Part shown: piece after piece, positions 1 to 48,840 of the stretch
Layout of the letters: each line of letters starts with the position of its first letter
How positions within the stretch are numbered: position 1 is the first letter of the stretch
Sequence record: OZ335961.1
Reading direction: 5' to 3' (one strand)
Length of the DNA: 64,000 nt
Origin: a phage
The notes under the pieces: generated by a model
What the model was told of the DNA's origin: nothing
Seen by the model: the letters and a program-made list of their open reading frames with translations, nothing else
The model's database searches: none
Position numbers and translations under genes: made by a program

Positions 1-323
1 CGATTCAGCAGAGCGTCAATAGAATCACCCAATGCTGTAACAGCTACAAAATTATAATCTTCTTTTAGTTTGTTAATTACGCACAGGGCATCTTTATATG
101 GAGACAAGTAACGAATAAAATCTGATCGATTGTATTTTTCAATTAACTTGACACCAAGTTCTTCATCACAATTAAAGAGTTTACCTGGAGAAATAAATTT
201 CTCATCTTGGATCATTTTTAAAATATGTTCTAACGGAAGATTATATTTCTGAGCAAAATAAGGAAGTCCTGATTGCCAGCTTAAACATACTCCATCAATA
301 TCAGTTAAAATAGTAGGCTTCAT
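1..323 (-). CDS. HAD-superfamily hydrolase-like protein (5' end at ~323, 3' end outside window)
   Basis: Hand-translated from ATG ~321-323: MKPTILTDIDGVCLSW..., with DxDG(V) HAD motif I; not in ORF track because partial. Confidence 0.5.
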   Translation of the reverse strand, partial: MKPTILTDIDGVCLSWQSGLPYFAQKYNLPLEHILKMIQDEKFISPGKLFNCDEELGVKLIEKYNRSDFIRYLSPYKDALCVINKLKEDYNFVAVTALGDSIDALLN

Positions 324-784
324 AGAGAGTCTCTTAATAGGTTTAACACATCAATAAATTCAGCTTCGGTTAGTATTGTATCATCTTTTGTTAGACCACT
401 AGCCATGCTGTGCTTCAAAACTTTTCCTTTCGAGGCTTGTAACGCATCACGAAAGCCCCTATTTTGGAACGCTGCTTCAAAATATGCATTTGTGTATAAT
501 TCTTTCCACGCCGGTGAATATCTTGAAAACGGAACTCCAAGCCAAAAGAGGGTCCCACGGTCCTGAGCTCTAGCACAAGACCTTCCAGCTTGTTGGGCGG
601 CAAGCCCGGATAACCCAAATATACGACGTTGCTGTTCAACATTTTTCACCTTGCATCCTTGGAGGAATCCTTCGAGACCTCCAAATTGAATACCATCCAT
701 AACGAAAGGCCATTGGGCGAAATTACTTAATGCGCATGATGGCCATTTAAAATTGCTTCTTATCTCTAGCTCAGACATTTTCAA
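320..784 (-). CDS. NADAR (YbiA-like) domain protein
   Basis: 154 aa; SNFAQWPF..DG...GLEGFLQGCK resembles the YbiA/NADAR signature SNFaaWP..DG...sEHyFQAqK as recalled. Confidence 0.55.
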   Translation of the reverse strand: MKMSELEIRSNFKWPSCALSNFAQWPFVMDGIQFGGLEGFLQGCKVKNVEQQRRIFGLSGLAAQQAGRSCARAQDRGTLFWLGVPFSRYSPAWKELYTNAYFEAAFQNRGFRDALQASKGKVLKHSMASGLTKDDTILTEAEFIDVLNLLRDSL

Positions 785-977
785 TACTTATAATTTCAAC
801 ATCAGCCCAATGACCATAGCAAGGAAGACGAAATTCAACTGGCCAGTTAGGGTCCTTTTCTAATATAATAGACTCAACTTGTGGTTCTTCATGTTCATCA
901 GTATATGGATTTTTATCTGTTACTTTATATGTGACCTTAATATACTGAATTCCAAAAATCTTATTAATTATATTCAT
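771..977 (-). CDS. hypothetical protein (68 aa)
   Basis: ORF track; co-oriented and tightly packed with neighbours. Confidence 0.4.
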   Translation of the reverse strand: MNIINKIFGIQYIKVTYKVTDKNPYTDEHEEPQVESIILEKDPNWPVEFRLPCYGHWADVEIISIENV

Positions 978-1171
978 ACTAATTCCTTTAATCCGTAAAT
1001 AGGAGATAATTCATCGCCCATACGAAGGTCTTCATTTCCATCTACCCAGGAAACAATATAAGCCTCTTTTATTTGAATACCACTCCATTTAAATGGAGGT
1101 AGAACCTTAGAAATTAATCCAGGTATACCAACTCCCTTTAATTCAACAGTTTGACCTAAAAAGAATTTCAT
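974..1171 (-). CDS. hypothetical protein (65 aa)
   Basis: ORF track; 4-nt overlap with neighbours suggests coupling. Confidence 0.4.
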   Translation of the reverse strand: MKFFLGQTVELKGVGIPGLISKVLPPFKWSGIQIKEAYIVSWVDGNEDLRMGDELSPIYGLKELV

Positions 1172-1458
1172 TAGAACCTCATCTGAAAACCGTGCGATTT
1201 AACATTACCGCCGCCAATATCAGAAATGTTAATTTCACGCGCAATTGAAGGGTCAATGTCAATTTCACGATTGAGTTTAGTGATAGCTAAAGTATCGCGC
1301 CCATTTACAGTACGGAATTCTAAAGGACATACTACATTAACGTAGTTTTTAATCGATTCGCTAGTAGGTTGCAAATGAGCAGGAAGGTCTTTAGGCGCCT
1401 TAGAGAAAACTACTTCGCAGAAGTTTTTACGAGTATCAAAATAAGTAGTCATAAACAT
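1171..1458 (-). CDS. hypothetical protein (~95 aa)
   Basis: ORF track trimmed to internal ATG ~1458 preceded by GAGGAAAA; a UUCG-type hairpin lies just upstream. Confidence 0.5.
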   Translation of the reverse strand: MFMTTYFDTRKNFCEVVFSKAPKDLPAHLQPTSESIKNYVNVVCPLEFRTVNGRDTLAITKLNREIDIDPSIAREINISDIGGGNVKSHGFQMRF

Positions 1459-1498
1459 AGTATTTTCCTCAGTAAGGGGCCGAAGCCCCTTATTTATT

Positions 1499-1864
1499 TT
1501 AAATATCAAATTCGTTAAGAACTACATCAAAGATTGCTTCAAGATGCTCAGGTTTAGCTCTGTTACTCAGAATATGACGAATCCAAGTTTTAACCAGAAG
1601 TTTACGATTAACACCATTCCAGCAAGGATGAGTCCCTAAATCGCGTTGGCGAAAATCATCATCCAGAGCGATTTTAAAAGAAGAACCTTCTTTCGTGATT
1701 GAAACCGTGATGCCATTTTCAAATCGCATATAAACGTAGTTAGGAGTCATATACTGTTCAATTTCGCATACTGATCCATTTTGATGTTTCCAAAGGCAGA
1801 TAGTATCAATAGAACCTGCAATACCGTTAGAAACATATTTACGTTCAAAGTTGATGTAGTTCAT
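1499..1864 (-). CDS. hypothetical protein (121 aa)
   Basis: ORF track; early-promoter-like element upstream at ~1901-1930. Confidence 0.5.
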   Translation of the reverse strand: MNYINFERKYVSNGIAGSIDTICLWKHQNGSVCEIEQYMTPNYVYMRFENGITVSITKEGSSFKIALDDDFRQRDLGTHPCWNGVNRKLLVKTWIRHILSNRAKPEHLEAIFDVVLNEFDI

Positions 1865-1900
1865 TTTTATTCTCCGAGATGTTTAATTGCGGTACAGGTA

Positions 1901-1930
1901 TATAATATCATATCCTGTACCAAAGTAAAC
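1901..1930 (-). promoter_or_regulatory. T4-type early promoter (GTTTAC -35, ~18 bp spacer, TAnnAT -10)
   Basis: gtaaac on the plus strand with a -10-like hexamer 18 nt to its left; precedes ORF 1499..1864. Confidence 0.45.
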
Positions 1931-1932
1931 AA

Positions 1933-2265
1933 TTATTTTACTACTTTCCAATGTTGCATGTCAAGTTTACCAACTTTTTTCATCTTCTCAATTAAGCGTT
2001 CGGCACGTTGGCGAGCTGTAACATAATACCATTCACCTAATTCATTTTGTTCAATTTTTCCAACGATTACTGTATTCAATTCATAAATCCAACCAGTAAA
2101 GAAATTATGAACTTGAATTGTAAAGGTGAAATCTGTTCCCATACCTTCTGTTGTTTCTACTTCAATAACATCACCTTCAACTGCCATTAAAAACCACATA
2201 GTTTCATCATATTTACCATTGAAGCATTTAGTTTTAACTGTAGCGTTCAGATTAATCGTTTTCAT
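1933..2265 (-). CDS. hypothetical protein (110 aa)
   Basis: ORF track; early-promoter-like element upstream at ~2293-2322. Confidence 0.5.
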   Translation of the reverse strand: MKTINLNATVKTKCFNGKYDETMWFLMAVEGDVIEVETTEGMGTDFTFTIQVHNFFTGWIYELNTVIVGKIEQNELGEWYYVTARQRAERLIEKMKKVGKLDMQHWKVVK

Positions 2266-2292
2266 TTTATTCTCCTTTGTTTGTGTAAGATA

Positions 2293-2322
2293 ATACTATC
2301 ACAAAGGAACCATACTGTAAAC
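2293..2322 (-). promoter_or_regulatory. T4-type early promoter
   Basis: Same GTTTAC-N18-hexamer architecture; precedes ORF 1933..2265. Confidence 0.4.
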
Positions 2323-2340
2323 AACTTTGTGCAATCTTTG

Positions 2341-2371
2341 AAAAATAAAAAAGGACTCCCGAAGGAGTCCT
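2341..2371 (-). terminator. rho-independent terminator (UUCG-loop hairpin + U-run)
   Basis: ggactcc-cgaa-ggagtcc perfect 7-bp stem; on the minus strand followed by a U-rich run. Confidence 0.55.
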
Positions 2372-2375
2372 CAAC

Positions 2376-2552
2376 TTATGCTTTCTGCTTACCAAAACGA
2401 GAAGCATCATCTCGAAGAACCGCACGTGCTCGGCGCATGATCTTCTCAACAGTTTGATTGATACGAGAGTTCGACCCACGCTTGTAACCAGCGCGTTTAG
2501 AATCACCAACTTTCTTTTCAACTGCTTTCTTTGCTTTAGCTTGTTTTGCCAT
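2376..2552 (-). CDS. small lysine/arginine-rich basic protein (~58 aa)
   Basis: ORF track trimmed to MAKQAKAKKAVEKK...; followed by a hairpin terminator. Confidence 0.45.
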   Translation of the reverse strand: MAKQAKAKKAVEKKVGDSKRAGYKRGSNSRINQTVEKIMRRARAVLRDDASRFGKQKA

Positions 2553-2949
2553 TATAAATTCTCTTTTAAATGAAAATGCAGGACTTATTGGCATTGCCTG
2601 CGAAAGCCCTCAAGGGGTACTTAGGTTTTGAATATTTACCGACAGGATAACCATAAACCTCGTCAACATACCTTATAGCTCTTATCTGTTGCACACCGTT
2701 AGCTTAAAGGTTCCGGGTTCGATTTCTCGAGGATAAGATATATACTGATGGATATATAGGCCTTGAGGCGTACTCCCGATTGGCCATCACCTCGGGGTAG
2801 CATGCACTTGCCGCTATAAGAATAACATTCAAGAGGTACACCGTAAAACTGCCGGGGTCTTAAAACTATAATGATTCGCAAATCATTAGTCAGACAGTTC
2901 GACGGCTCCTCGATTTTAGCTCACACTAAGGCAGTGAATCTCCAATAAA

Positions 2950-3198
2950 TTACTTCAGTGTTACCACAAAGTGACGAACTGCTTTTCGTGCGGCAGAAGC
3001 CAGAGGCTTAGCATATTTAAGTTCATCTTTTTCCTGAAGCTCAGCAGCTAATGCAGTTTGAGCAGGATTCAGATGTTTGAAATAACGCAGGATTTCAAGA
3101 GCTTCGGCTTCAACATCAATAGATGCGCCATAGTTTTCGTGACCATTATTCCATGCGTTTCGTTGCAGTTCAAGAGCGTGTTGTAATTGTTTAATCAT
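2950..3198 (-). CDS. rIII: probable rIII lysis-inhibition accessory protein
   Basis: 82 aa, immediately downstream of gene 31; matches the size and position of T4 rIII as recalled. Confidence 0.5.
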   Translation of the reverse strand: MIKQLQHALELQRNAWNNGHENYGASIDVEAEALEILRYFKHLNPAQTALAAELQEKDELKYAKPLASAARKAVRHFVVTLK

Positions 3199-3337
3199 TT
3201 AAAAATTCTCGTTAGAGATTAAAACTCGGTAGTCACGTTCTTCTGAATTTCATCTTCTTTCGACAGATCTCTCAGTTGTAGACTACCACATAGAATTGTT
3301 CGGTTAACTTATTATTCCGACACCCAATTCATATTAT

Positions 3338-3345
3338 TATTTATA
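3338..3345 (-). promoter_or_regulatory. possible late promoter TATAAATA upstream of rIII
   Basis: Minus-strand TATAAATA just after the gene 31 stop; long leader to rIII makes the assignment uncertain. Confidence 0.3.
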
Positions 3346-3681
3346 TCACTTATAAAGACACGGAATAGCTTTATAGTGACAGGTAACGAATTTTTGCTTA
3401 ATTTCTTTTGGCTGCTTAAGACCCAGAGCTACAAAAGGATGAGGAACGTTTCGAATTTGACCAACTGGAAGAGAAGTCAAATCACCAACTTCGCAGAAAC
3501 CTTCAGGAACATCAGGACCAACAGAGTGAACTACACACAGTTCAGGAACTTCACCTTGGACGCGTTTACCGATAATAAGTCCTGATTCTGTAACTTCTTC
3601 ATCACCGGCTTGTGCAGGTTCAGAAACTAAAATAACATATTCACCGACAGCACGAATTGGTAGCTGTTGTACTTCAGACAT
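3346..3681 (-). CDS. 31: gp31 co-chaperonin (GroES analogue for capsid folding)
   Basis: 111 aa [22 protein letters not shown]... matches recalled T4 gp31; position between rIII and cd. Confidence 0.85.
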
Positions 3682-5199: not shown

Positions 5200-5432
5200 A
5201 GTACGCCATACACCCTTTGTGCTTCAACTAATCCATCAAAATCCAATTTGAGATGTGTTATTTGGTCACCATCACCTGGATTCACAATTACTAATACTGA
5301 ACGAGGAGTTTCGGTAATAACACGAACCGATGTTTCTGGAAATCGTTCAGAAACCTTATTTACCAATTCCTGAGCAAATAGTTTAACTTTTTCTTGGAAT
5401 TCTTTAACAGTAATTGGTTTTTCGCTTAGCAT
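5196..5432 (-). CDS. hypothetical protein (78 aa)
   Basis: ORF track; cd-pseT interval. Confidence 0.45.
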   Translation of the reverse strand: MLSEKPITVKEFQEKVKLFAQELVNKVSERFPETSVRVITETPRSVLVIVNPGDGDQITHLKLDFDGLVEAQRVYGVL

Positions 5433-5953
5433 GTTGATCCCAGCTCCTTACTTTCAACGTTTTTAACTAATTTGACAGAAACTAATTCAGCATCTTGAGT
5501 AATCATTACCGGACCTTCTTCATACTCTTCGAGATACTCTAGAGCTTTCTTTTTAGCTTCTTCCTTCGTATCAGTTTGAGCATAGATATAAAACATACAA
5601 CCAGTAATACCTACTACTTTCCACTTAATTTCTTTATCAGCTTTAATTTCAAATTTACTGACAGAGTCATCTTTTTGAACTTCTTCGAAAAAAGAATATT
5701 CTAACATATAAGCAATTGAAAATAACGGGCTAACTTTATAGGATTCGCCCATTACATCAACAGCTTTATACCAGCAATCATCAATTTCACGTTTAATGCT
5801 AATAACATTTTTCGCAGGATCTATTTTTACTTTAAATGAATTTTCCCCAATAAACTGAGCAATTCGTTTATTAGCCCCACAGGTTTCATTAAAAATATCT
5901 TTATATCCAGCTTTAAAGCGATAAACCTTATCTTCTTCAAACCATTCGCTCAT
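5426..5953 (-). CDS. hypothetical protein (175 aa)
   Basis: ORF track; early promoter-like element upstream at ~5983-6012. Confidence 0.55.
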   Translation of the reverse strand: MSEWFEEDKVYRFKAGYKDIFNETCGANKRIAQFIGENSFKVKIDPAKNVISIKREIDDCWYKAVDVMGESYKVSPLFSIAYMLEYSFFEEVQKDDSVSKFEIKADKEIKWKVVGITGCMFYIYAQTDTKEEAKKKALEYLEEYEEGPVMITQDAELVSVKLVKNVESKELGSTC

Positions 5954-6684: not shown

Positions 6685-7905
<1,221 letters not shown>

Positions 7906-7909
<4 letters not shown>

Positions 7910-8136
7910 CTATTTTTCTCAACCAATGATTGAATATAATCATGTAGGTCTTTAGATGCTTTACCCCACTTATTTTGGTATTCATTTTTAAGATTAGCAC
8001 GAGATTGAGCTAATAAAACATCATTAGTTGGAGGTAAAGATTCTAACCGCTGAATCTGGCGTCCGTAAATCATTGCAGCCATCTCGGATTCATAAATCAA
8101 TCCTTTGAGATGTTCAAATTGATGCCATGAAATCAT
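7906..8136 (-). CDS. hypothetical protein (76 aa)
   Basis: ORF track; pseT-alc interval. Confidence 0.45.
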
Positions 8137-8432
8137 TTACATTTATCCTCTTTTAGCTCTTGACGATAATAACATATCATAGTTTTCTGATCATGCACAT
8201 ATCGTTTTACATCATTAAGCCAAATACGAAATTCCTGGGAATCTTCAAATGGCATACCGACCCAAGCTTTACCATCGATAACTTTAACTTGCCAAGATAG
8301 TTTAGCTTCATCATATGACTTTATCTGCACAGGCCAATTAGGATGAACTGTTTCTTTCTTTACTTCTAGAGGCTTTGTCGAACAACCAACTAGAAGACCA
8401 ATAGATAATATTACTGCTGATAGTTTAATCAT
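8133..8432 (-). CDS. o-spanin-like outer-membrane lipoprotein (Rz1 equivalent)
   Basis: N-terminal signal peptide with lipobox LLVGC; directly downstream of the i-spanin-like ORF; corresponds to the T4 pseT.2/pseT.3 spanin pair. Confidence 0.5.
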   Translation of the reverse strand: MIKLSAVILSIGLLVGCSTKPLEVKKETVHPNWPVQIKSYDEAKLSWQVKVIDGKAWVGMPFEDSQEFRIWLNDVKRYVHDQKTMICYYRQELKEDKCK

Positions 8433-8782
8433 TTAGAAAGGTCCTGGATGTCTTCTGCGAACTTGTTGAAGGAGTTGTTGATTTGTTTTTCAACCAATCC
8501 TGGCTTATGAGCCACCACATCCGCCTTCTTTGCGTCTTTGCGCAGTTTTTCATTTTCACGCTCAATAGCAGCAATTGCCTCACGATTTTTATTATTCATC
8601 GCATCAATATAATTATACTGAATTCGCAAATTATTTAATGCTAAAGCGTTTTCATTGGCCGTTTTTGTAATTTCAGTAACCGATGTTTCTAATCTTTCTA
8701 CCTTATTTTTTAAAATAATAGATGTTCCGCCAAATGCTATTACAAGTAATAGCAATCCAGCTGTAAAATTACTTACATGCAT
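8429..8782 (-). CDS. i-spanin-like protein (Rz equivalent)
   Basis: N-terminal transmembrane helix followed by long coiled-coil-like charged region; 4-nt overlap with lipoprotein gene. Confidence 0.5.
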   Translation of the reverse strand: MHVSNFTAGLLLLVIAFGGTSIILKNKVERLETSVTEITKTANENALALNNLRIQYNYIDAMNNKNREAIAAIERENEKLRKDAKKADVVAHKPGLVEKQINNSFNKFAEDIQDLSK

Positions 8783-9276
8783 AAAGTTTTAATAACCTCT
8801 ACAATATCGTCTTGAGAAAGACCGTTAATTAAAATATGATGTTCAGCCGGAGATTTAGAAATTTTAAAGCATGCCTCAACATCTTCTGCCATATCCGATG
8901 CGCTACGATTTGGATTACTAATTCCAAGACGATGTTTTCCCGTCAAAGGATTAACGATGATGTAGCATTTACAATTATTGATATGAACATTAGGTTGAGT
9001 CTGATTAATGAACACATCACAATCATATTTCGCAAGCTGATTTTCTAAAAAGACTTTCATCTCCTCAACTGCATCAGGAAGCATATCACGGGCTTGCTCA
9101 AGACGACGATTTCGATATTCTTTAATGGTCGTTTTCCGCTTGACTTGCTTAGCTAAATCTTTCTTAAGATCGGTGATATATCCAACTCGACGATTTCCTT
9201 TAAATACAGAAATCCCATCTGTAGTATCACCGTATGCTTCAACGACCATCTCAGTAGTAATAAGCTGCAAATCCAT
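8773..9276 (-). CDS. alc: Alc (host transcription termination/unfolding protein)
   Basis: ~167 aa in the T4 alc position adjacent to rnlA; early-promoter element upstream at ~9308-9337. Confidence 0.6.
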   Translation of the reverse strand: MDLQLITTEMVVEAYGDTTDGISVFKGNRRVGYITDLKKDLAKQVKRKTTIKEYRNRRLEQARDMLPDAVEEMKVFLENQLAKYDCDVFINQTQPNVHINNCKCYIIVNPLTGKHRLGISNPNRSASDMAEDVEACFKISKSPAEHHILINGLSQDDIVEVIKTLCM

Positions 9277-9307
9277 CATAAAGTCCTCATGTTATGTCAG
9301 TAAGACT

Positions 9308-9337
9308 ACTATAACACAACACGAGGGACTTGTAAAC
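9308..9337 (-). promoter_or_regulatory. T4-type early promoter upstream of alc
   Basis: GTTTAC -35, TATAGT -10, 18 bp spacer. Confidence 0.45.
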
Positions 9338-9340
9338 AGC

Positions 9341-10928
<1,588 letters not shown>

Positions 10929-10955
10929 AATAAAATGGGCCTTGCGGCCCACTCC

Positions 10956-12125
10956 TTAAAAATATTTTTTAAAACTCATCATAACTTTATCATCAACATC
11001 ATTATCAATCTGTGCTACAAGGTAAGATGACAGTTCTACTTCCTGTGGCGCGGATTGAACATTATCAGAATTAAGGTATTCACGAATCCAAGGATACGGA
11101 TGTTTAACCGGAGCATCGGTAATTGGGCATGGAAGACCACACTGTTTCATACGAGATACAGTTAAGTAATCAATAAAGCTCCACATGCTATTTGTATTTA
11201 ATCCAGGAACATCGCCATCTTTAAATAAATGAACTGCCCAGTCTTTTTCTTGACGGTTAACTTCCATGAAAATATCAACTGCTTCTTGTTCACACTCTTG
11301 GGCGATTTTAACCCATTCATCACCATCAGTGCCAAGTTGAAGTTGACGAATAATATATTGGGTGCCTTTAAGGTGAAGCTGCTCATCACGTGCAATGAAC
11401 TTCATAATCTTGGCATTACCTTCCATGATTTCCATGTTCTTATGGAAGTTAAAGGTACATGCGAAAGATACATAAAAACGAATAGCTTCCAGTGCATTGA
11501 TTACATGAAGGCAAAGATAAAGAGATTTCATTAGTGCTTGTTTAGTACATTCAACAACTTTGCCTAACTCTTCTTTGCGAAATCCTTCTGATAAAATTCC
11601 TTCATAATCTTCAACCGCATTCTGATATTCACGAGTCTTAACTAGAACGTCATCATAATAACGACCAATAGATTCAGCACGTTTCATGATAGCTTTATCT
11701 AATACAATCTCATCAAATACCTTTGACGGATCAGTATAAAGATTTCGCATGATATGAGTATATGAACGGCTGTGAATAGTTTCACTAAAAGTCCATGTAG
11801 CAACCCATGTATCAAGACTTGGATCTGAAATTAACGACATAAGTACAGCAGACGGTGCACGACCCTGAATGCTATCTAGAAGTGATTGATACTTCAGGTT
11901 ATTAGTAAAAATATCTTGCTGATATTGAGGAAGCTTGTTAAATTGCGCAGCATCCATCATCAAGTTTACTTCTTCAGGACGCCAGAAAAATGATAATTGC
12001 TTTTCGGTTAAATCTTCAAAAACTTTATGGCGTTGAATATCATAACGCGCAATACCAAGACCTGAACCGAAGAACATAGGTTCTTTTAAAACATCAACTG
12101 GATTTGTATTAAAAACTGTAGACAT
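10956..12125 (-). CDS. nrdB: ribonucleotide reductase small (beta) subunit, uninterrupted
   Basis: ~389 aa from MSTVFNTNPVDV...; diiron-tyrosyl radical R2 family; continuous ORF, no intron. Confidence 0.9.
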   Translation of the reverse strand: MSTVFNTNPVDVLKEPMFFGSGLGIARYDIQRHKVFEDLTEKQLSFFWRPEEVNLMMDAAQFNKLPQYQQDIFTNNLKYQSLLDSIQGRAPSAVLMSLISDPSLDTWVATWTFSETIHSRSYTHIMRNLYTDPSKVFDEIVLDKAIMKRAESIGRYYDDVLVKTREYQNAVEDYEGILSEGFRKEELGKVVECTKQALMKSLYLCLHVINALEAIRFYVSFACTFNFHKNMEIMEGNAKIMKFIARDEQLHLKGTQYIIRQLQLGTDGDEWVKIAQECEQEAVDIFMEVNRQEKDWAVHLFKDGDVPGLNTNSMWSFIDYLTVSRMKQCGLPCPITDAPVKHPYPWIREYLNSDNVQSAPQEVELSSYLVAQIDNDVDDKVMMSFKKYF

Positions 12126-12856
12126 TAATTTTTCCTCTTTAAAATTCTGCCGTGTTTCCAACCTGGCGGTATAATATCATCTTTACCTATAAGCGTGCAT
12201 TCACTTCCATTATTAATCCATTTCTTACCGCGGATTCCTTTATAATCTCTTGGTTTTATTTTGTCAAACTTTGCATCAAGTTGATATGACCATCTAAATC
12301 CATAAGCATATTGAAATTTACCCTCGGCGCAATATTTGATATTTGACCCGTTTCCATTAACTGACCGGGACGCTGCTGCAATAGAGTGAAAAGTTTCTAT
12401 GAAATCCCCATCTAATGAGAATTTATGTATTTCTACAGATGGGCACGCATATCTATTCACGTTAGATACATGTTGTTTAGTTTCGTTTTTATGATGCTTA
12501 CCTAGCATTCCTTTAGGATGAGGATTATTTTTCCAATATTTCTTAAAGAACTCAGAATTAGCTTTAGCAAATAATTTTCTGTGTAAGCTGTACAATCTAT
12601 TATTAATTCTATTGCCAGCTTTATCTGTTGCCATTAGCGTTAATGCAGAGGCAAGTCCAAAATGGCCTTCATTTATCTTACACAGTAATAGATGTGCTAT
12701 AAAATGTTCTCTAGCTGTTAATTCAACTAAATTTTCTTTATCATCAGAACCTCCCATGCATCTAGGGATTATATGATGTGTCTCTTTATATTCTGATAAA
12801 GATTCCCGAGCCTGAGCTCGGGAAATTAGGTCGTTATAGATTTTTTGATAATTCAT
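12125..12856 (-). CDS. mobE: HNH homing endonuclease (Mob-type)
   Basis: 243 aa; HHIIPRCMGGSDDKENLVELTAREHFIAH HNH core; sits between nrdA and nrdB as T4 mobE does. Confidence 0.7.
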   Translation of the reverse strand: MNYQKIYNDLISRAQARESLSEYKETHHIIPRCMGGSDDKENLVELTAREHFIAHLLLCKINEGHFGLASALTLMATDKAGNRINNRLYSLHRKLFAKANSEFFKKYWKNNPHPKGMLGKHHKNETKQHVSNVNRYACPSVEIHKFSLDGDFIETFHSIAAASRSVNGNGSNIKYCAEGKFQYAYGFRWSYQLDAKFDKIKPRDYKGIRGKKWINNGSECTLIGKDDIIPPGWKHGRILKRKN

Positions 12857-15120
12857 TATAATTTACACGCTGCGCAATCATCGGCTTTTGGAGCTTCTAT
12901 TTCATAATCATCAGTACCAGAACCATCGCGAGTATTATGATAATAGAAATTTTTAATGCCATAATACCATCCGTATAGCATGTCATCAATCATTATTGAC
13001 ATTGGAACCTTTCCTTTTGGAAAAATCTGCGGGTCATAATATGTATTCGCTGAAGCTGATTGACATACCCATTTCAGCATAATAGCTACTTGCGTAAGAT
13101 AAGGTTTATTACCTTTCTTAGCTAATTTCCACGTATAATCATATAGGTCTATGTTATGCTCAATATTGGGCACGACTTGATTAAAGGAACCCTCTTTTGA
13201 TTCTTTAACAGAGACTGGTCCACGTGGAGGCTCGATACCGTTTGTACTGTTAGAAACTTGGGAAGATGACTCACATGGCATAAGTGCTGATAATGTGCTA
13301 TTACGGATGCCAAAGAGCTTAAGGTCTTCCCGCAGCGACGACCAGTCACAAACGTATTTTGGAGCTGCGATTTGGTCAATCTTTTTATTGTACCAGTCGA
13401 TAGGTAATTCGCCTCGAGACCAACGAGTGTCTGAATAATATTCGCAAGGTCCTTTTTCTTTGGCGAGTTTAATGGATGCTTTAATGAGTCCATACTGCAA
13501 TCTCTCAAATAGTTCATGTGTTAAATCGTTAGCATCTTCATAAGAAGCAAAATTACTTGCCAGCCAAGCTGCATAGTTAGTAACACCTACGCCAAGGTTT
13601 CGACGCTTTTTAGCTTTTTCTGCTTCAGGAACTGGATATCCTTGGTAATCCAAAAGATTATCAAGAGCACGAACTTGGACTTCTGCCAATTCATTAATTT
13701 TATCTTGGTCTTGCCAATCGAAGTTATCTAACACAAATGCAGATAACGTGCACAATCCAATTTCAGCATCAGGACTATTCACATCATTTGTTGGAATAGC
13801 AATTTCACAGCACAAGTTACTCTGACGAATAGGTGCCTTTTCACGAATAAATGGCGTATAGTTATTCGTATTATCAATGAACTGCACATAAATCCTTGCT
13901 GTTCCTGAGCGTTCAGTCATAAGTAATTCAAACAGTTCACGGGCTTTAATACGCTTTTTACGAATATTAGGGTCTTTTTCTGCGGCTTCGTATAATTCAC
14001 GGAAACGGTCTTGGTCTTTAAAATAAGAATAATAAAGTTCGCCACCCATTTCATGCGGACTAAACAAAGTAATGTAATCGTTCTTTCCGAATCGTTCCAT
14101 CATTAGGTCATTCAGTTGAACGCCATAATCCATATGACGGATACGGTTTTCTTCTACACCTTTGTTGTTTTTCAAAACGAGAAGATTTTCAACTTCCAAA
14201 TGCCAAATAGGATAATAAGCAGTAGCAGCGCCGCCACGAATTCCACCCTGTGAGCATGATTTAACAGCAGTCTGAAAATGTTTCCAAAAAGGAATAACAC
14301 CAGTATGACGTACTTCACCTGTGCCAATCTTAGAACCTTCGGCACGAATCATACCAACGTTAATACCAATTCCAGCACGTTTGGAGATATATTCAACAAT
14401 TGAAGCGGAAGCCTTATTGATAGACTTTAATGAATCACCTGCTTCAATAACAACACATGAACTAAACTGTCGAGTTGGAGTACGACAACCAGCCATAATA
14501 GGAGTTGGCAATGAAATCTGTCGAGTAGATACTGCTTCATAAAAACGAATAACGTGTTTTAGTCTATCAACAGGTTCATCTTGATGCAATGCCATTCCAA
14601 TAGTCATAAATGCAAACTGTGGAGTTTCATAAATTTGACCAGTGGTTTTATCTTTAACTAGATATTTTTCTTTTAATTGCATCGCCCCGGAATAAGTAAA
14701 TTCCATATCCCGCTCGTGCTTAATTTTTGATTCTAAAAATGTAATTTCTTCTGCTGAATATTTTGACAACAGTTCAGGGTCGTATTTACCTTCATTTACA
14801 CAGTAAGAAATATGGTCAATAAATGAACGTGGTTCATATTGTCCATAAACATGCTTACGAAGAGCGAACATTAAACAGCGTGCAGCTACGTATTGATAAT
14901 CAGGCTCTTCAACTGAAATAGAATTCGCAGCAGCCTTAATTACAATGGTTTGAATGTCATCAGTGGTCATTCCATCACGGAGATATGATTTAATATTTTC
15001 ATATAATTCATAAGGATCTACAGATGTTCCTTCAGCTGCCCAAGATAAAACTTTAATAATTTTTTGCGGGTCAAAGCTCTGAGAAACACCACTACTTTTG
15101 ATAACATTAATTAATTGCAT
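12856..15120 (-). CDS. nrdA: ribonucleotide reductase large (alpha) subunit
   Basis: 754 aa; ATP-cone N-terminus and C-terminal Cys-containing tail (DDCAACKL); class Ia R1. Confidence 0.95.
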   Translation of the reverse strand: MQLINVIKSSGVSQSFDPQKIIKVLSWAAEGTSVDPYELYENIKSYLRDGMTTDDIQTIVIKAAANSISVEEPDYQYVAARCLMFALRKHVYGQYEPRSFIDHISYCVNEGKYDPELLSKYSAEEITFLESKIKHERDMEFTYSGAMQLKEKYLVKDKTTGQIYETPQFAFMTIGMALHQDEPVDRLKHVIRFYEAVSTRQISLPTPIMAGCRTPTRQFSSCVVIEAGDSLKSINKASASIVEYISKRAGIGINVGMIRAEGSKIGTGEVRHTGVIPFWKHFQTAVKSCSQGGIRGGAATAYYPIWHLEVENLLVLKNNKGVEENRIRHMDYGVQLNDLMMERFGKNDYITLFSPHEMGGELYYSYFKDQDRFRELYEAAEKDPNIRKKRIKARELFELLMTERSGTARIYVQFIDNTNNYTPFIREKAPIRQSNLCCEIAIPTNDVNSPDAEIGLCTLSAFVLDNFDWQDQDKINELAEVQVRALDNLLDYQGYPVPEAEKAKKRRNLGVGVTNYAAWLASNFASYEDANDLTHELFERLQYGLIKASIKLAKEKGPCEYYSDTRWSRGELPIDWYNKKIDQIAAPKYVCDWSSLREDLKLFGIRNSTLSALMPCESSSQVSNSTNGIEPPRGPVSVKESKEGSFNQVVPNIEHNIDLYDYTWKLAKKGNKPYLTQVAIMLKWVCQSASANTYYDPQIFPKGKVPMSIMIDDMLYGWYYGIKNFYYHNTRDGSGTDDYEIEAPKADDCAACKL

Positions 15121-15437
15121 AAGTCCTCAACTTGAAAATCGTCTTTAAACAATCGGTTAACTATATGAGCTATTATATCACCATGACACGGCTTTGGTTT
15201 ACATGTGCATCCTATCCTCATTCCACGTAAAGGCTCTAAATGTGCTTTAGTTATTTCTCCGGATTTAATTCGACGTATAAAATCTTTTTTGAATAATTCA
15301 ATGGCAGCCTCCCGGCTGCCAGCATCTTTACCGACGTAATTTCCCCAAAATGTACCACGGTGAATATTAACATCAAAGTCGGATTTATATTTATTCACTA
15401 CCTGACATAGACGGCCCGCGCGGTGATAATTCGTCAT
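15111..15437 (-). CDS. hypothetical protein (108 aa)
   Basis: ORF track; nrdA-td interval; contains CTCKPKPCH Cys/His cluster. Confidence 0.45.
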
Positions 15438-15666
15438 ATTGTTTTTCCGTTAAAACAGTAATATCATAATAACAATCAGAAGAAGTTTTAACTGTAGAAA
15501 TTTTATTATCAAAATACTCACGAGTCATTTTATGAGTATAATATTTTTTGCCATAAATGATAATAGGCTGATTTGGTCCTGGAACTTCTAACTCGCTTGG
15601 ATTAGGAAGTGTAAAAAGAACTACACCAGAAGTATCCTTAAATCGTAAAATCATATATCCTCTCAA
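15391..15666 (-). CDS. hypothetical protein (91 aa)
   Basis: ORF track; nrdA-td interval. Confidence 0.4.
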
Positions 15667-15677: not shown

Positions 15678-16537
15678 TTACACCGCCATCTTTCCTTTAA
15701 TTGGCGGGTGAGATACATAGTTGTTAAGAACAAAATTATGCGGCTTTGCGAATTGACTCAACCAAAATACCTGCGATTCTGTGTCCCATTCATCAAATTC
15801 ATCTGGAAATTTTAATTGTAATTCGCATAAATCCATAGGTTCACGACGCAAAATTTCTTTACATTGTTCTACGTGATTCATATAGATATGAGTATTACCA
15901 CCAGAAAATATCAAATCTCCTGGAATAAGATTACACATCTTAGCTACAATATGAACTAATGCAGCATATGACGCAATATTAAATGGAAGACCGAGGAAAA
16001 CATCTACTGAACGTTGATACCACTGCAAATCCAAATAGCCATTACGCACATTAAATTGATAGAACATATGACAAGGTGGTAATGCCATTTGCTTGAGTTC
16101 AGCTGGATTCCATGCTGAAACAATTTGACGTCTATCATTTGGCAGTTTTTTAATACGATCAATAACTTCTATAATTTGGTCTACACCGCCAAAATCGCGC
16201 CACTGTTTTCCATAAATTGGACCAAGTTCACCGCTATGGTATCCTAAATCTTTTGCTTGGTTTTCGTAATTTTCATCCCAGACCGTTTTGCCTTGAATTA
16301 ATGAATCATGTTGAATTAATCGCAAATCATTGACATTTGTGCTTCCCGATAAAAACCATATTAGTTCAGCAATGCAAGCTTTCCAGGCGAGCTTCTTAGT
16401 CGTTACTGCAGGAAAACCTTTAGTTAAATCCCAGCGTAATTTAGTACCGAACAAAGCAATTGTTCCTGTGCCTGTTCGGTCATCGGTTTCATAGCCATTT
16501 TCCAGGATATCTTTAATTAAAAATTGGTATTGTTTCA

Positions 16538-16538: not shown

Positions 16539-17570
<1,032 letters not shown>

Positions 17571-17581
17571 ATTATCTCCTA

Positions 17582-17914
17582 TTAAAAAGGATCAGGAACA
17601 TATCCACTAGCTTTAATCATTTTAACTAATGTTACCATTCCTTTGTTAACTGCTTGTGAGATTTCATCAAAAACTTCATCATTAAAAAGTTCTAGCACAC
17701 CCTTCTGAACTTTTAATTTACAGCCAACAATTTCGTCATCGCCTATAGTAAATTCATTACCGCCAATTCCACCGAAAAACTTAATTACGCCAGTTAACTG
17801 TCTTCCACGAGAATATGGGTCGTGTGATAAAGTAATATGAGTCACCCCAGGTACAGTTTTAAATTGACAGCGGATGTTTACTTGAGCAATTCCAGTTACA
17901 TGAATGTCAGACAT
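17582..17914 (-). CDS. hypothetical protein (110 aa)
   Basis: ORF track; frd-32 interval. Confidence 0.45.
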   Translation of the reverse strand: MSDIHVTGIAQVNIRCQFKTVPGVTHITLSHDPYSRGRQLTGVIKFFGGIGGNEFTIGDDEIVGCKLKVQKGVLELFNDEVFDEISQAVNKGMVTLVKMIKASGYVPDPF

Positions 17915-19931: not shown

Positions 19932-19999
19932 TTTTATTTCCTTTTTAATTTAATTAACAGTTGGTGCTATGACGATGTATGACCTCATAGCTGGTCAGT

Positions 20000-20032
20000 G
20001 AGATAATTATAATCTATTTATAATAAGCAATT
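20000..20032 (-). promoter_or_regulatory. gene 32 promoter region: MotA-box middle promoter overlapping a late TATAAATA
   Basis: Minus strand reads aaTTGCTTAttaTAAATAgatTATAATtatc; AU-rich leader follows, consistent with the gp32 translational operator. Confidence 0.5.
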
Positions 20033-28011: not shown

Positions 28012-30978
28012 ATGGCTACTTTAAAACAAATACAATTTAAAAGAAGCAAAACTGCAGGTCAACTTCCTGCTGCTTCAGTATTAGCCGAAGGTGAATTGGC
28101 TATTAATTTAAAAGATAAAACAATTTTCACAAAAGATGACTCAGGCAATGTTATAGAATTAGGTTTAAAATATGGAGGAACAATTGATGGTTCTTTAACT
28201 GTTAATGGAAATATAATTGGAAATTTAACAGGTAACGCTGCAACTGCAACGAAATTAAAAACAGCACGAAAAATTAATGGTATATCCTTTGATGGGTCAA
28301 AAGATATCACGCTAACTCCATCTGACATAAATGTCAATAGCACAACGTTTATAAAAAATAACGGCGAATTACCGGTTGATGCTAATTTAGATACGTATGG
28401 GCCTGTTGAAGAATATCTTGGAGTTTGGTCGAAAGCAACTTCAACCAACGCTCAACCAGCAAATAAATTTCCAGAAGAAAATGCTGTAGGTGTGCTAGAA
28501 GTATTTGTGGCCGGTCAATTTGCTGGTACTCAGCGTTATACAACTAGATACGGAAATGTTTATATTCGTTCCTTGACTGCTACATGGAACGGAGTAAACG
28601 GTCCGTGGAGTGTGTGGCGAAATATTCAATCCGGTACTCGTCCACTGTCAACAACAATTGATCTTAATGATTTAGGAGGAGCTGAACACCTTGGTTTGTG
28701 GCGAAATAGTTCAAATTCCATTGCTACATTTGACAGAAATTTCCCAGAAGAGGGGTCGTCAGCTCAAGGTCTTTTGGAAGTATATGAAGGTGGAAACTAT
28801 TCTCGTACACAAAGATATACAACCAGATTTGGTGTTGTTTATACTCGTTGTCTTGCTGCCGCGTGGGATTCTACTGCGCCTAAATGGGGACCGTGGCAAC
28901 AAGTCGGTAATGTCACACCAGCGACTTTTTATGATGGAGATCTGAATGATTTTAAAACTCCTGGGTTATATAATATTTTAGGCACTGATGCCGTTATTAA
29001 TTGTCCTACAGGCGAAGGTTTACCAGCCGTTATTGTTGGTTTGCTGGAAGTTAAACAGCGTGCTTCTGGTGGTGCTATTTTCCAAAAATTTACTACTGCC
29101 GGAACAGGTGCAACTACCCGCGATCGTATTTTTGAGCGCGCATATACCGGCGGTGTGTGGGGTGAATGGAACGAAGTATACACATCTTATTCTCTACCAA
29201 TTACTTTGGGTATGGGCGGTATTAAATCTAACTTAGCAGAGTTAGACTGGCAAGCATTTGATTTTGTTCCTGGTAGTATGTTTAGCGTTCCTTTGAACAA
29301 AATAAAGAACATGCCAGCTAATATGGATTGGGGTACGATTAACGGAAACTTAATTATGTTTTCTGTTGGTCCTAGCGAGCACACCAGCACAGGACGTACT
29401 GTTCAAGTTTGGCGTGGAACTGTATCCCAGACAAACTATCGTTATTTTGTCGTTCGTGTATTCGGTAATCCAGGGAGTAGAACATGTACAGTTCGACGCG
29501 TTGTTCTTGAAGACGGATCACATACTTGGACTGCTAAACAAGATTTTAATGGCGCAGTTAACTTTAACTCTACTGTTAACCTTAATAACACTACCACATT
29601 TAAAACAGAAGTTAAATTCCGCTCGTTGAATGCATTCCGTATGTATGGCGGAAAATTTGGTACATTTTTACGTAATGATGGAGAGAGTCTTTATATTCTT
29701 TCCACCGACGAAGATGATCAAGATGGAAACTTTAATACAAATAGACCTTTCCGTTATGAATTAAGAACTGGTGATGTTACTTTAGGTGGTACTAGTGGTG
29801 CTAACGTTTTAAAATTAAAACGTGATTCTCTCACCGCATTTTTTGGTGGTGATATTAACATGAAAGGCTTGCTGACTTTTGACGCCGGACGTTTAGGATC
29901 ACGAGATTATTTTAAATTTAACCATTGGGGTGATAGTAATAATGCGCGTGATAACATTATTCAGTTAGAAGACAGCAAAGGCGCTCATTTTTCCACTGAA
30001 CGTACTTTAGCGACTGGTGCAATTAAGACTAAATTTTTTGGTGAAATTGAATCCGATGGTAAATTGGTTATTAAACGTCCGGGTGATTCTATTGTATTAT
30101 CAACAACTGCTAGTAATTCTTTGCATATTCGTGGTGACATAGACGGGACTGGTAACTGGTATATTGGTAAGGGTGGTGCTGATAATGGATTAGCGTTATA
30201 TAGTTATGCTACTAATGCTGGTGTATACATTACAAACGCAGGAGATATCACGCTAAGTCCAAAAGGCGTCGAAATGGCCCATGTCAATAACGTTCGATTA
30301 TATGTTCACGGTGAACGTTGGACTGCTAGTCAACCAGGTGATTGGGGTAGTCAGTGGCAAGTGGAAGCGCCAATATTCGTCGATCATGGTTATGTTTCAC
30401 AGGATTGTTATTATCCAATTATTAAAGGAAGAAGTGTAATCACCAATCAAGGGTTTGTAACTGCCGTCGATCTTGGTATTCGTCGTGTCAATAACAATTG
30501 GGGACAAGCAATTATTCGTGTTGGATCTGCGGAGGCATCGCCAGCGGCTGGACACCCTAACGCGGTATTTGAATTTCATTACGACGGTACTTTCTATTCT
30601 CCTGGTAATGGTAACTTTAACGATGTGTATATTCGTTCCGATGGTCGTCTTAAGATTAATAAAAAAGAGCTAGAAAACGGAGCACTTGAAAAAGTATGCC
30701 GACTGAAAGTTTATACATACGATAAGGTTAAGTCTATTAAAGATCGTAGTGTTATTAAACGTGAAGTTGGTATTATTGCTCAGGATCTTGAAAAAGAATT
30801 ACCAGAAGCTGTGTCTAAAGTTGAAGTTGATGGATCTGATGTTCTGACAATTTCTAACTCCGCTGTGAATGCTCTTTTAATTAAGGCTATCCAAGAAATG
30901 AGCGAAGAAATTAAAGAATTAAAAACGCCTTTCTTCACTAAAATTGCTCGCAAAATTAGTAATTATTTTAAATTCTAA
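28012..30978 (+). CDS. 37: long tail fibre distal subunit gp37 with C-terminal intramolecular chaperone-like domain
   Basis: 988 aa; N-terminus similar to gp36/gp34 junction motifs; C-terminal ~113 aa starts at an SDGRLK-type motif. Confidence 0.9.
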
Positions 30979-31010
30979 CAACAAGGGGCTTTGCCCCTTT
31001 GGAGAAAATT

Positions 31011-31811
31011 ATGGCAGTAGTTGGTGTTCCCGGTTGGATTGGAAGTTCATCTGTAAATGAAACAGGACAACGATGGATGAGTCAAGCGGCTGGTCAATTA
31101 AGATTGGGTGTTCCTTGCTGGATGAGCCAATTCGCCGGACGCTCAAGAGAGATTATTCATACCGTAACAGCAAACCATAACTTTAATGGTCAATGGTTCC
31201 GCGACCGTTGCTTTGAAGCTGGCGGTGCACCCATTGTATTCAATATTGTTGGTGATATCGTTTCTTATTCTAAAGATGTGCCACTTTTCTTTATGTATGG
31301 GGATACGCCTAATGAATATGTTGTTCTTAATATTCATGGTGGTGTTCATATGTGGGGTCGTGGTGGTAATGGTGGATACACTCACTCAGGAGGCGACGGT
31401 AACGGTACACAAGGCGGTCATGTTATTCAAAATGATATCGGTGGACGGCTTCGTATTTGGAACTACGGTGTTATAGCTGCTGGGGGTGGCGGCGGTGGTG
31501 GTATTGCATATCGTCCACACTCAGGGGCAAACTGGCAAGATATCGGCGGTGGTGGTGGTCGACCTTTCGGTGGCGCTGGCGGCGGCGGTTATTCCGGTGG
31601 TGCTGCTTCGTATGAAGGTCCGGGTGGTGGTTATGACTATGGTAACGCACACTCCGGCGCAGGCGGTAATGCTGGTGCTGCTGGTCAGAATGCATGGTAT
31701 GACGGCGGTAAAGTTCTTAAAGTTGGTGTTGGTGGTGCGTCTGGTCATGCAGTGTTTGGGTCTTCTCCAACTTGGGGTGCTGTTGGAACAATTTACGGAC
31801 CAAGAGTATAA
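31011..31811 (+). CDS. 38: gp38 tail-fibre adhesin (T2-type, glycine-rich motifs)
   Basis: ~266 aa from ATG with GGAG SD; multiple poly-Gly tracts (GGGGGGG, GGGGG) separating short variable segments. Confidence 0.8.
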
Positions 31812-31841
31812 TTTGAATAAATATCTTTAAAAGGAGGGTCT

Positions 31842-38621: not shown

Positions 38622-38894
38622 TCATAGTTCAATCTCAGCGATTTTCATTTCATTACTATTAATAGCCGCTTTAAGACTATCTGAAAGAATTACATCCCAG
38701 TGGTCATTCATATGACCATTAACTAAGCGTGTAATTTCTTCGGGAGTTGAAAAATAAGGCGTATCAGACTCCCAGTGTGATAATCCCAAACGAGTATAAA
38801 TCATGCCTTCATCATCGCTAGAATATTCAACTGACACAAACTCATCAGTTATTTTATGTTTAGCGTAATAAAATTTAAATTTCATTTTACTCAA
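38622..38894 (-). CDS. hypothetical protein (90 aa)
   Basis: ORF track. Confidence 0.45.
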   Translation of the reverse strand: MSKMKFKFYYAKHKITDEFVSVEYSSDDEGMIYTRLGLSHWESDTPYFSTPEEITRLVNGHMNDHWDVILSDSLKAAINSNEMKIAEIEL

Positions 38895-45472: not shown

Positions 45473-45541
45473 CACTTATCCTCGTTTGGTTTCGGGAATA
45501 TTATACTCCAATAATCATAAAGCTAAAGGCCCGAAGGCCTT

Positions 45542-48834: not shown

Positions 48835-48840
48835 AACTTT

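What the first reader, a model, noticed from the sequence alone, without database searches (positions are those of the whole stretch)
1..784. NADAR (YbiA-like) domain protein next to a HAD-family hydrolase
The 154-aa ORF carries the SNFaxWP..DG...FQ.xK signature of NADAR/YbiA proteins. NADAR enzymes have been reported to hydrolyse ADP-ribose from guanine bases, i.e. to reverse DarT-type DNA ADP-ribosylation, so a phage copy is a plausible counter-defence or nucleotide-repair function. The upstream partial ORF has a DIDGV HAD motif.
Basis: partly seen in the sequence, partly recalled or inferred. Interest (0 to 1): 0.55.

Follow-up and report, generated by a model that had tools for sequence, protein, structure and literature searches.

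The report
T4 AdfN anti-DarT NADAR gene

Summary
The window is a Tequatrovirus (T4-like) genome segment. The flagged ORF lies on the minus strand at 320-778 (152 aa from the ATG; 154 aa from an upstream TTG). It is 97% identical (147/152) to T4 gp30.3. That protein was renamed AdfN and shown in 2024-2025 to be a NADAR-fold DNA ADP-ribosylglycohydrolase that neutralises DarTG1.

Evidence obtained here:
- Pfam PF08010 Phage_30_3 matches at E=1.5e-68.
- 26 of 62 family relatives also hit Pfam NADAR.
- Catalytic E36, K43 and the phage-clade H123 are invariant, and the C-terminal helix that RB69 lacks is intact.

The neighbouring partial ORF (1-323, minus strand) is the first 107 aa of gp30.2. It lies downstream of adfN, not upstream, and it is a genuine HAD-fold, nucleotidase-like protein. 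Published T4 transposon data show 30.2 is dispensable for DarTG1 resistance, so the adjacency is synteny rather than a two-enzyme module.

One unexplained lead remains. Gene 30.4, whose stop overlaps the adfN start, is the only other significant DarTG1 hit in that screen.

Verdict: correct reading, already known, low novelty.

The parts
320..778 (-). adfN (gene 30.3) coding sequence, 152 aa plus the TGA stop at 320-322. It encodes a NADAR-fold DNA ADP-ribosylglycohydrolase.
779..784 (-). Two extra codons (TTG AAA) that give the mechanical 154-aa ORF. Probably not translated as part of AdfN.
   Evidence: the ORF listing start at 784. The T4 annotation and the published residue numbering use the ATG.
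719..727 (-). Codons for S18-N19-F20, the invariant SNF motif of NADAR proteins.
   Evidence: Invariant in 62 homologues. Aligned to the SNF of YbiA.
650..673 (-). Codons for E36 (671-673) to K43 (650-652), i.e. the E-G-F-L-Q-G-C-K catalytic helix.
   Evidence: E36, Q40 and K43 are invariant. E36A and K43A impair T4 AdfN (PMC11825919). Codons read directly.
410..412 (-). Codon for H123, the histidine that replaces the Glu/Asp of other NADAR clades in the last strand.
   Evidence: Invariant. Described as the phage-clade hallmark in PMC11125620 and PMC11825919.
323..367 (-). Codons for residues 138-152, the C-terminal helix that is lost in the DarTG1-sensitive RB69 allele. It is intact here.
   Evidence: Helix H138-151 in the model. 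The RB69 frame shift is visible. Truncation reduces activity.
1..323 (-). 5' part of gene 30.2 (residues 1-107 of 278), cut by the window edge. HAD-superfamily, nucleotidase-like phosphatase. Its ATG overlaps the adfN stop (ATGA).
288..302 (-). HAD motif I, D8-I-D-G-V12, in gp30.2. Motif II T96 is at 36-38. Motifs III and IV lie beyond the window edge.
   Evidence: Codons read. Invariant columns.
771..977 (-). Gene 30.4 (68 aa, no known family). Its stop overlaps the adfN start by 8 nt, and adfN has no clear Shine-Dalgarno sequence, so the two are probably translationally coupled.
   Evidence: ORF. No Pfam hit. The same 8-nt overlap occurs in T4, RB69 and VR26. It is the second significant DarTG1 hit in the T4 Tn-seq.
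415..642 (-). 30.3' ORF (75 aa), in another frame inside adfN and annotated in T4. Doubtful as a gene.
   Evidence: ORF. T4 annotation. Open in T4 and VR26 but interrupted by a stop in RB69.

Best explanation
Window 320-778 (minus strand) is the adfN gene (T4 gene 30.3) of a Tequatrovirus.

Proposed mechanism:
- When the phage infects a cell carrying the DarTG1 toxin-antitoxin defence, the DarT1 toxin ADP-ribosylates guanines in phage DNA and blocks replication.
- AdfN is a small stand-alone NADAR-fold enzyme related to the DarG1 antitoxin. It hydrolyses the guanine-ADP-ribose bond, releasing ADP-ribose and restoring the base, so replication proceeds.
- Catalysis uses the conserved Glu36/Lys43 helix and a clade-specific His123.
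- It does not act on thymidine-linked ADP-ribose (DarT2).

Gene context: adfN sits in a tightly packed early-gene run, 30.6 > 30.5 > 30.4 > adfN > 30.2 > 30.1 > ligase. It is probably translated by coupling to 30.4. The downstream gene 30.2 encodes a HAD-fold, deoxyribonucleotidase-like phosphatase of unknown substrate that is not needed for this counter-defence.

Shown here: identity with T4 AdfN, the fold, the residues, the intact reading frame and the gene context. Taken from the literature on the T4 orthologue: the enzymatic activity and the DarTG1 phenotype. Inferred: that this allele behaves the same, and the translational coupling.
For: - Genome identity: 97% nucleotide identity to T4-like phages over 3 kb, with T4 gene order.
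- Protein identity: 147/152 residues identical to T4 gp30.3, with no gaps.
- Family: PF08010 E=1.5e-68. 26 of 62 relatives also match PF08719 NADAR, best E=1.5e-07. The family profile hits YbiA 2b3w at E=0.0017 across the SNF...E..Q..K motif.
- Residues: S18, N19, F20, E36, Q40, K43 and H123 are invariant in 62 homologues down to 35% identity.
- The reading frame is intact where RB69 is frameshifted.
- Literature on the T4 orthologue. Deleting T4 adfN sensitises T4 to DarTG1. E36A and K43A impair rescue. The purified protein removes ADP-ribose from DarT1-modified DNA. There is no effect on DarTG2 (PMC11825919). A T4 phage NADAR is active in vitro on guanosine-ADPr but not thymidine-ADPr (PMC11125620). 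In T4 Tn-seq, insertions in 30.3 fall from 261.0 to 0.7 reads per site under DarTG1 (log2FC -7.25, adjusted p 0), while 30.2 is unchanged (log2FC -0.12).
Against: - Nothing here measures activity of this particular allele. It differs from T4 at five positions (K11R, C68Y, F104I, R107K, M125I), and position 125 is next to H123. However, Met at 125 is the family consensus.
- The sequence alone does not reach Pfam's NADAR model, NCBIfam or any PDB sequence.
- T4 AdfN works fully only during T-even infection and does not rescue uninfected cells from DarT1, so the mechanism is incomplete.
- The in vitro construct in PMC11125620 is listed as 'residues 1-208', which does not match a 152-aa gp30.3.
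Confidence: 0.9

Rival explanations
1. AdfN and the adjacent HAD phosphatase gp30.2 form a two-enzyme module. The NADAR would release ADP-ribose or a damaged nucleotide, and the HAD enzyme would process the product. gp30.2 might then be the unknown T-even factor that AdfN needs.
For: - The two genes overlap as ATGA.
- They are adjacent in T4, ACG-C40, VR26, RB69 and Acinetobacter phage 133, and near each other in Aeromonas AsFcp_4.
- Their counts and host distributions in the phage collection are almost the same: 1511 versus 1440 records.
- In Vibrio phage VH7D, a gp30.3 homologue in a different genomic context is followed by a different HAD nucleotidase, Pfam NT5C E=3e-12.
- A weak T5-dNMPase-like ORF lies about 1.1 kb upstream of the gp30.3 homologue in a metagenomic contig.
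Against: - In T4 Tn-seq under DarTG1, 71 TA sites in 30.2 show log2FC -0.12, p=0.61, so gp30.2 is dispensable for the counter-defence.
- No gp30.2 homologue lies within 5-6 kb of gp30.3-family genes in Rhizobium RL2RES, Ralstonia RSP15, Brevundimonas Marchewka, Salmonella STML-198 or three metagenomic phage lineages.
- NADAR hydrolysis leaves an intact base, so there is no phosphate to remove.
Confidence: 0.04
2. The protein is a housekeeping YbiA-type N-glycosidase acting on riboflavin-pathway intermediates or other small molecules, not on DNA.
Against: The clade has His where YbiA-type enzymes have Glu. The published phylogeny places it next to the DarG1-type NADARs. The T4 orthologue acts on ADP-ribosylated DNA and has a DarTG1-specific phenotype.
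Confidence: 0.02
3. DarTG1 is only one target. The enzyme is a general eraser of guanine-linked (or other nucleic-acid) ADP-ribose placed by several toxins, or it interferes with other ADP-ribose-dependent defences. This is an added role rather than an exclusive alternative.
For: A glycohydrolase acts on the adduct whichever transferase made it, as argued in PMC11825919. The same discussion cites another phage NADAR acting against Retron-Eco1 (reference 37). The family is spread over many phage families and hosts.
Against: No direct evidence was found. T4 AdfN does not affect DarTG2. Nothing in the window bears on it.
Confidence: 0.2
4. This allele is inactive, like the RB69 allele.
For: Truncated or fragmented copies are common among database relatives, with clusters of 126, 109 and 89 aa. 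RB69 carries a frameshift.
Against: The ORF is full length at 152 aa. All invariant residues and the C-terminal helix are present.
Confidence: 0.03

Closest known systems
T4 AdfN (gp30.3), anti-DarT factor NADAR (Johannesman et al., Nat Commun 2025, PMC11825919)
   Same: Orthologue. 147/152 residues are identical and the length is the same. It sits in the same position between 30.4 and 30.2, with the same overlaps, and has the same E36, K43, H123 and C-terminal helix.
   Different: Five conservative substitutions (K11R, C68Y, F104I, R107K, M125I). This allele has not been tested.
DarG1-type NADAR antitoxins of DarT1-NADAR operons (G. lovleyi 8BAT; E. coli C7)
   Different: - AdfN has no partner toxin gene.
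- It lacks the N-terminal extension.
- It has His in place of Asp in the last strand.
- T4 AdfN cannot replace DarG1 in uninfected cells.
E. coli YbiA (2B3W) and the Pfam NADAR family PF08719
   Different: About 21% identity. YbiA has Glu rather than His at the third catalytic position and a housekeeping role in riboflavin metabolism. This sequence does not reach PF08719 on its own.
AdfN-Bas32 and AdfN-Bas60 (NADARs of T5-like and Vequintavirinae phages)
   Same: Phage-encoded stand-alone NADARs that counter DarTG1.
   Different: They belong to different NADAR clades and were acquired independently. They work in uninfected cells and in any phage background, whereas T4-type AdfN does not.
5'(3')-deoxyribonucleotidase-like HAD phosphatases (3BWV, NT5C/6G2N); T4 Pnkp phosphatase domain. 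These are the comparison for gp30.2.
   Different: No Pfam or NCBIfam HAD model is reached. gp30.2 has an extra, poorly conserved and apparently disordered C-terminal tail of about 80 residues. Its substrate is unknown.

Membership tests
NADAR superfamily | YbiA/NADAR fold (helical core flanked by two small sheets) | tested here: met
NADAR superfamily | Conserved SNF motif and catalytic Glu and Lys on the E-x-x-x-Q-x-x-K helix | tested here: met
   S18, N19, F20, E36, Q40 and K43 are invariant in 62 homologues. They align to the YbiA motif.
NADAR superfamily | Charged or polar catalytic residue in the last strand (Glu in YbiA type, Asp in BC4488/DarG1 type, His in phage type) | tested here: met
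   H123 is invariant and sits just after strand 120-122 of the model. The clade rule comes from PMC11125620.
NADAR superfamily | Match to the Pfam NADAR model PF08719 | tested here: inconclusive
   No hit at E<=1 for this sequence, but 26 of its 62 relatives hit, best E=1.5e-07. Pfam models the phage clade separately as PF08010. This is a property of the database rather than of the protein family.
NADAR superfamily | Hydrolysis of guanine-linked ADP-ribose on DNA | not testable with these tools
   Reported for the 97%-identical T4 protein.
T4-type AdfN / Pfam Phage_30_3 (PF08010) | Match to PF08010 above the curated cut-off | tested here: met
   229.4 bits against a cut-off of 36, E=1.5e-68, covering the whole model.
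T4-type AdfN / Pfam Phage_30_3 (PF08010) | Orthology with T4 gene 30.3: sequence identity and position between 30.4 and 30.2 | tested here: met
   97% identity. Collinear with T4 over window 1-2669. Same neighbours.
T4-type AdfN / Pfam Phage_30_3 (PF08010) | Full-length allele with the C-terminal helix (absent in the DarTG1-sensitive RB69) | tested here: met
   152 aa with helix 138-151. The RB69 frameshift is seen and is absent here.
T4-type AdfN / Pfam Phage_30_3 (PF08010) | Confers resistance to DarTG1 during infection | not testable with these tools
   Shown for T4 by deletion and complementation and by Tn-seq.
HAD superfamily (for gp30.2) | Motif I DxDx[TV] and motif II Thr/Ser | tested here: met
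   D8-I-D10-G-V at window 288-302 and T96 at 36-38. D8 and D10 are invariant and T96 is at least 90% conserved.
HAD superfamily (for gp30.2) | Motif III Lys and motif IV acidic pair | tested here: met
   K132, D150 and D151 are invariant in 50 homologues. These residues lie outside the window and were judged on the T4 orthologue, whose first 107 aa are identical to the window's.
HAD superfamily (for gp30.2) | Rossmannoid HAD fold with cap | tested here: met
HAD superfamily (for gp30.2) | Match to a curated HAD sequence model | tested here: not met
   No Pfam or NCBIfam hit for the fragment or for full-length T4 and ACG-C40 gp30.2. The profile against PDB gives only E=0.13, to a deoxyribonucleotidase. 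gp30.2 is therefore filed as HAD-fold by structure and motifs, not as a member of any named HAD subfamily.

The most novel reading that the evidence does not exclude
The small protein gp30.4 (window 771-977, minus strand, 68 aa, no known family) may be the 'as-yet unknown T-even factor' that T4-type AdfN needs for full activity, rather than a bystander.

Points in favour:
- In the published T4 transposon screen, 30.4 is the only gene besides adfN that is significantly depleted under DarTG1 (log2FC -1.79, adjusted p 0.014; 2 significant genes genome-wide). The preprint's main text does not mention it.
- Its stop overlaps the adfN start in T4, RB69, VR26 and this phage.
- Its homologues are confined to the T-even phages of enterobacteria, mainly Escherichia and Shigella. 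That group includes RB69, the background where ectopic AdfN-T4 was reported to work fully.

The simpler reading is a polar or translational-coupling effect of insertions in 30.4 on adfN expression.
Probability: 0.12. Interest if true: 0.55.

Novelty: already known. Interest (0 to 1): 0.2.

Why it matters
As a finding it mainly validates the scan.

For this phage, the result predicts resistance to guanine-specific DarTG1 systems. Together with the adfA (61.2) homologue also present in the window, it suggests a layered anti-DarT repertoire.

Two questions near this locus remain open:
- What makes T4-type AdfN dependent on T-even infection?
- What is the substrate of the conserved HAD-fold gp30.2?

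The overlooked secondary Tn-seq hit in 30.4 gives a cheap, testable lead on the first question.

Tried and rejected
- Direct sequence searches with the single protein found no NADAR. Pfam NADAR gave nothing at E<=1, NCBIfam gave no hit, and PDB sequences gave only a chance HIV integrase match at E=0.54. PHROGs gave only an unnamed family. Family-level and structural evidence was needed.
- gp30.2 as AdfN's partner was rejected. The T4 Tn-seq shows no depletion, and the gene is absent next to gp30.3 homologues outside Straboviridae.
- A conserved gp30.4-like ORF upstream of distant gp30.3-family genes was sought and not found by all-against-all BLASTP of 22 neighbouring ORFs. This gives no comparative support for a gp30.4 partnership, though gp30.4 is T-even-restricted.
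- The promoter and terminator scan of 1-3400 found promoter-like sites at chance level (13 against 10.6 expected) and no terminator between 30.4, adfN and 30.2.
- The Rfam scan of the whole window found nothing.
- 30.3' as a real overlapping gene: the frame is broken in RB69 and diverges much faster than the adfN frame in VR26, so it is treated as doubtful.

Full report
**What is in the sequence.** The first 3 kb of the window are 97% identical at the nucleotide level to many T4-like coliphages; 965 records match, mostly Escherichia and Shigella Tequatrovirus. The window is collinear with T4 from gene 30.2 onwards.

The flagged ORF lies on the minus strand. The mechanical ORF runs 320..784 (154 aa, TTG start). 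T4 annotates the ATG two codons downstream (window 778-776), giving 152 aa. The published residue numbers fit that start.

The upstream gene 30.4 (771..977, minus strand) ends 8 nt inside adfN. The downstream gene starts with the ATG at 323-321, which overlaps the adfN TGA as ATGA. No convincing Shine-Dalgarno sequence precedes the adfN ATG (AAGTATTGAAA-ATG, read). No terminator-like site separates the three genes. They therefore look like one tightly coupled translation unit; this is an inference.

**Identity of the ORF.** The protein matches Pfam PF08010 'Bacteriophage protein GP30.3' end to end (E=1.5e-68). It is 147/152 identical to T4 gp30.3 without gaps.

On its own it does not reach Pfam NADAR, NCBIfam or any PDB sequence. 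The link to NADAR appears one level up:
- Of 62 full-length relatives (35-86% identity), 26 also hit PF08719 NADAR, best E=1.5e-07.
- A profile of the 62 hits E. coli YbiA (2b3w) at E=0.0017, aligning LSNFA..F..DG....mEGFLQslK to FSNFAAWPIKVDG...SEHYFQAQK.
- An AlphaFold2 model built on that alignment is confident (pLDDT 94, pTM 0.89).

Residues S18, N19, F20, E36, G37, F38, Q40, K43 and H123 are invariant across the 62 sequences.

**What is already known.** The literature search shows this gene has been characterised.
- Cihlova et al. (Toxins 2024, PMC11125620) list gp30.3 proteins as the phage NADAR clade. The clade is distinguished by a histidine where YbiA-type enzymes have Glu and DarT-associated NADARs have Asp. 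They report that a T4 phage NADAR removes ADP-ribose from guanosine but not from thymidine in vitro, and that it does not protect cells from DarT1.
- Johannesman et al. (Nat Commun 2025, PMC11825919) mapped DarTG1 resistance of T2 and T4 to the 3' part of gene 30.3 and renamed it adfN. RB69 is sensitive because a one-base insertion truncates the protein by 15 residues. Ectopic AdfN-T4 rescues RB69, while E36A, K43A and the truncation impair rescue. The purified protein removes ADP-ribose from DarT1-modified DNA, and DarTG2 is unaffected.
- A T4 transposon screen (bioRxiv 10.1101/2025.11.20.689424) found insertions in 30.3 lost under DarTG1. In its Data S6 table the mean count per site falls from 261.0 to 0.7 (log2FC -7.25, adjusted p 0).

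The window's allele keeps E36, K43, H123 and the whole C-terminal helix (residues 138-151 in the model). The frame that is broken in RB69 is intact here. Its five differences from T4 are conservative, and Met125 next to H123 is the family consensus. I therefore take it to be a functional AdfN, with confidence 0.9.

**The neighbouring 'HAD' ORF.** Window 1-323 (minus strand) encodes the first 107 residues of gp30.2, 100% identical to T4. It is downstream of adfN, not upstream.

No Pfam or NCBIfam model matches it, even at full length. Even so, an alignment of 50 homologues has invariant D8, D10, K132, D150 and D151 and a nearly invariant T96. These are HAD motifs I-IV.

**Is the NADAR-HAD adjacency meaningful?**

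For a link:
- The ATGA overlap.
- Adjacency or near-adjacency in every Tevenvirinae-type genome examined (T4, ACG-C40, VR26, RB69, Acinetobacter 133, Aeromonas AsFcp_4).
- Near-identical record counts and host distributions (1511 versus 1440).
- In Vibrio phage VH7D, a gp30.3 homologue in a quite different neighbourhood (between gp55 and gp47) is followed by a different HAD nucleotidase (Pfam NT5C, E=3e-12).

Against a link:
- gp30.3-family genes in Rhizobium RL2RES, Ralstonia RSP15, Brevundimonas Marchewka, Salmonella STML-198 and several metagenomic phages have no gp30.2 homologue within 5-6 kb.
- Most tellingly, T4 insertions at 71 sites in 30.2 are not depleted under DarTG1 (log2FC -0.12, p=0.61).

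I conclude that the pairing is conserved synteny in an early-gene block near DNA ligase, not a functional module for this defence.

**An unexplained lead.** Both experimental papers note that T4-type AdfN does not work in uninfected cells. The LeRoux group (Johannesman et al.) adds that it works only weakly in non-T-even infections, and proposes an unknown T-even factor.

In the Tn-seq table for DarTG1, exactly two genes are significant genome-wide. One is 30.3. The other is 30.4 (21 sites, 375.9 to 108.0, log2FC -1.79, adjusted p 0.0141). The main text never mentions 30.4.

gp30.4 has no family assignment. Its homologues occur in 720 phage records, almost all Escherichia, Shigella, Yersinia and Salmonella T-even phages, including the RB69 group. 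I found no related ORF upstream of distant gp30.3-family genes.

The parsimonious explanation is polarity. Insertions in 30.4 would abolish the terminating ribosomes on which the SD-less adfN start probably depends, giving partial loss of AdfN. A real accessory role for gp30.4 is not excluded. I give it about 12%.

**Verdict.** The feature is an orthologue of an experimentally characterised gene, so the novelty class is 'already known' and the interest is low (0.2).

Noticed in passing
window 58910-59533 (minus strand): Homologue of T4 gp61.2 (AdfA), the other published anti-DarT factor: 95.7% identical over all 208 residues. The same window therefore carries two anti-DarT genes. The T4 modA/modB ADP-ribosyltransferase region also maps into a collinear block of the window (T4 7673-15610 corresponds to window 48289-56237).
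   Followed up: partly
window 771-977 (minus strand): Gene 30.4 is the only gene other than adfN that is significantly depleted in the published T4 Tn-seq under DarTG1 (log2FC -1.79, adjusted p 0.014). The preprint's main text does not mention it. This is either a polar effect or a real cofactor.
   Followed up: partly
window 415-642 (minus strand): The ORF that T4 annotates as 30.3' (75 aa, another frame inside adfN) is open here, in T4 and in VR26. It carries an internal stop in RB69 and diverges fast, so it is probably not a conserved gene.
   Followed up: partly
window ~11458-11461 and ~15989-15990: Relative to T4, the nrdB intron (with I-TevIII, about 600 bp) and the td intron (with I-TevI, about 1017 bp) are absent. 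Consistent with this, Rfam finds no RNA family anywhere in the 64 kb.
   Followed up: partly
window 19994-20030 and 12127-12686: The T4 homing-endonuclease gene segG is absent. The nrdB.1/mobE segment of T4 is replaced by about 560 bp of unrelated sequence.
   Followed up: no
window 43655-45475 (minus strand): T4 has gene 39, mobA, 60.1 and gene 60 with its 50-nt translational bypass. Here about 1.1 kb of T4 sequence is replaced by 64 bp, and a single 606-aa ORF spans the region. The topoisomerase large subunit therefore appears unsplit and without the bypass element.
   Followed up: partly
window 2670-2824, 5432-5950, 7590-7902, 16540-16740, 17346-17857, 38655-39094: Short insertions relative to T4. 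Two carry clear extra ORFs: 5426..5953 (175 aa, between cd.2 and cd.3) and 7589..7909 (106 aa, between pseT and pseT.1). Their functions were not examined.
   Followed up: no
window 28167-31816: The distal part of tail-fibre gene 37 and gene 38 have no BLASTN match to T4, whereas the flanks are 90-96% identical. This suggests a different receptor-binding tip.
   Followed up: no
L006 6007-6958 (Vibrio phage VH7D): A gp30.3-family NADAR gene sits between the gp55 and gp47 regions, not near ligase. It is immediately followed, with overlap, by an NT5C-family HAD 5'(3')-deoxyribonucleotidase. This is a second, different HAD nucleotidase next to a phage NADAR.
   Followed up: partly
window 1471-1494: A perfect GC-rich hairpin (AAGGGGCCGAAGCCCCTT) lies between genes 30.7 and 30.6. 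The scan scores it as terminator-like only on the plus strand, which is opposite to the genes.
   Followed up: no
PMC11125620, Methods 4.2: The 'E. coli T4 phage NADAR (gp30.3)' construct is listed as residues 1-208. T4 gp30.3 is 152 aa, and 208 aa is the length of gp61.2 (AdfA). This is possibly a typo or a different phage protein.
   Followed up: no
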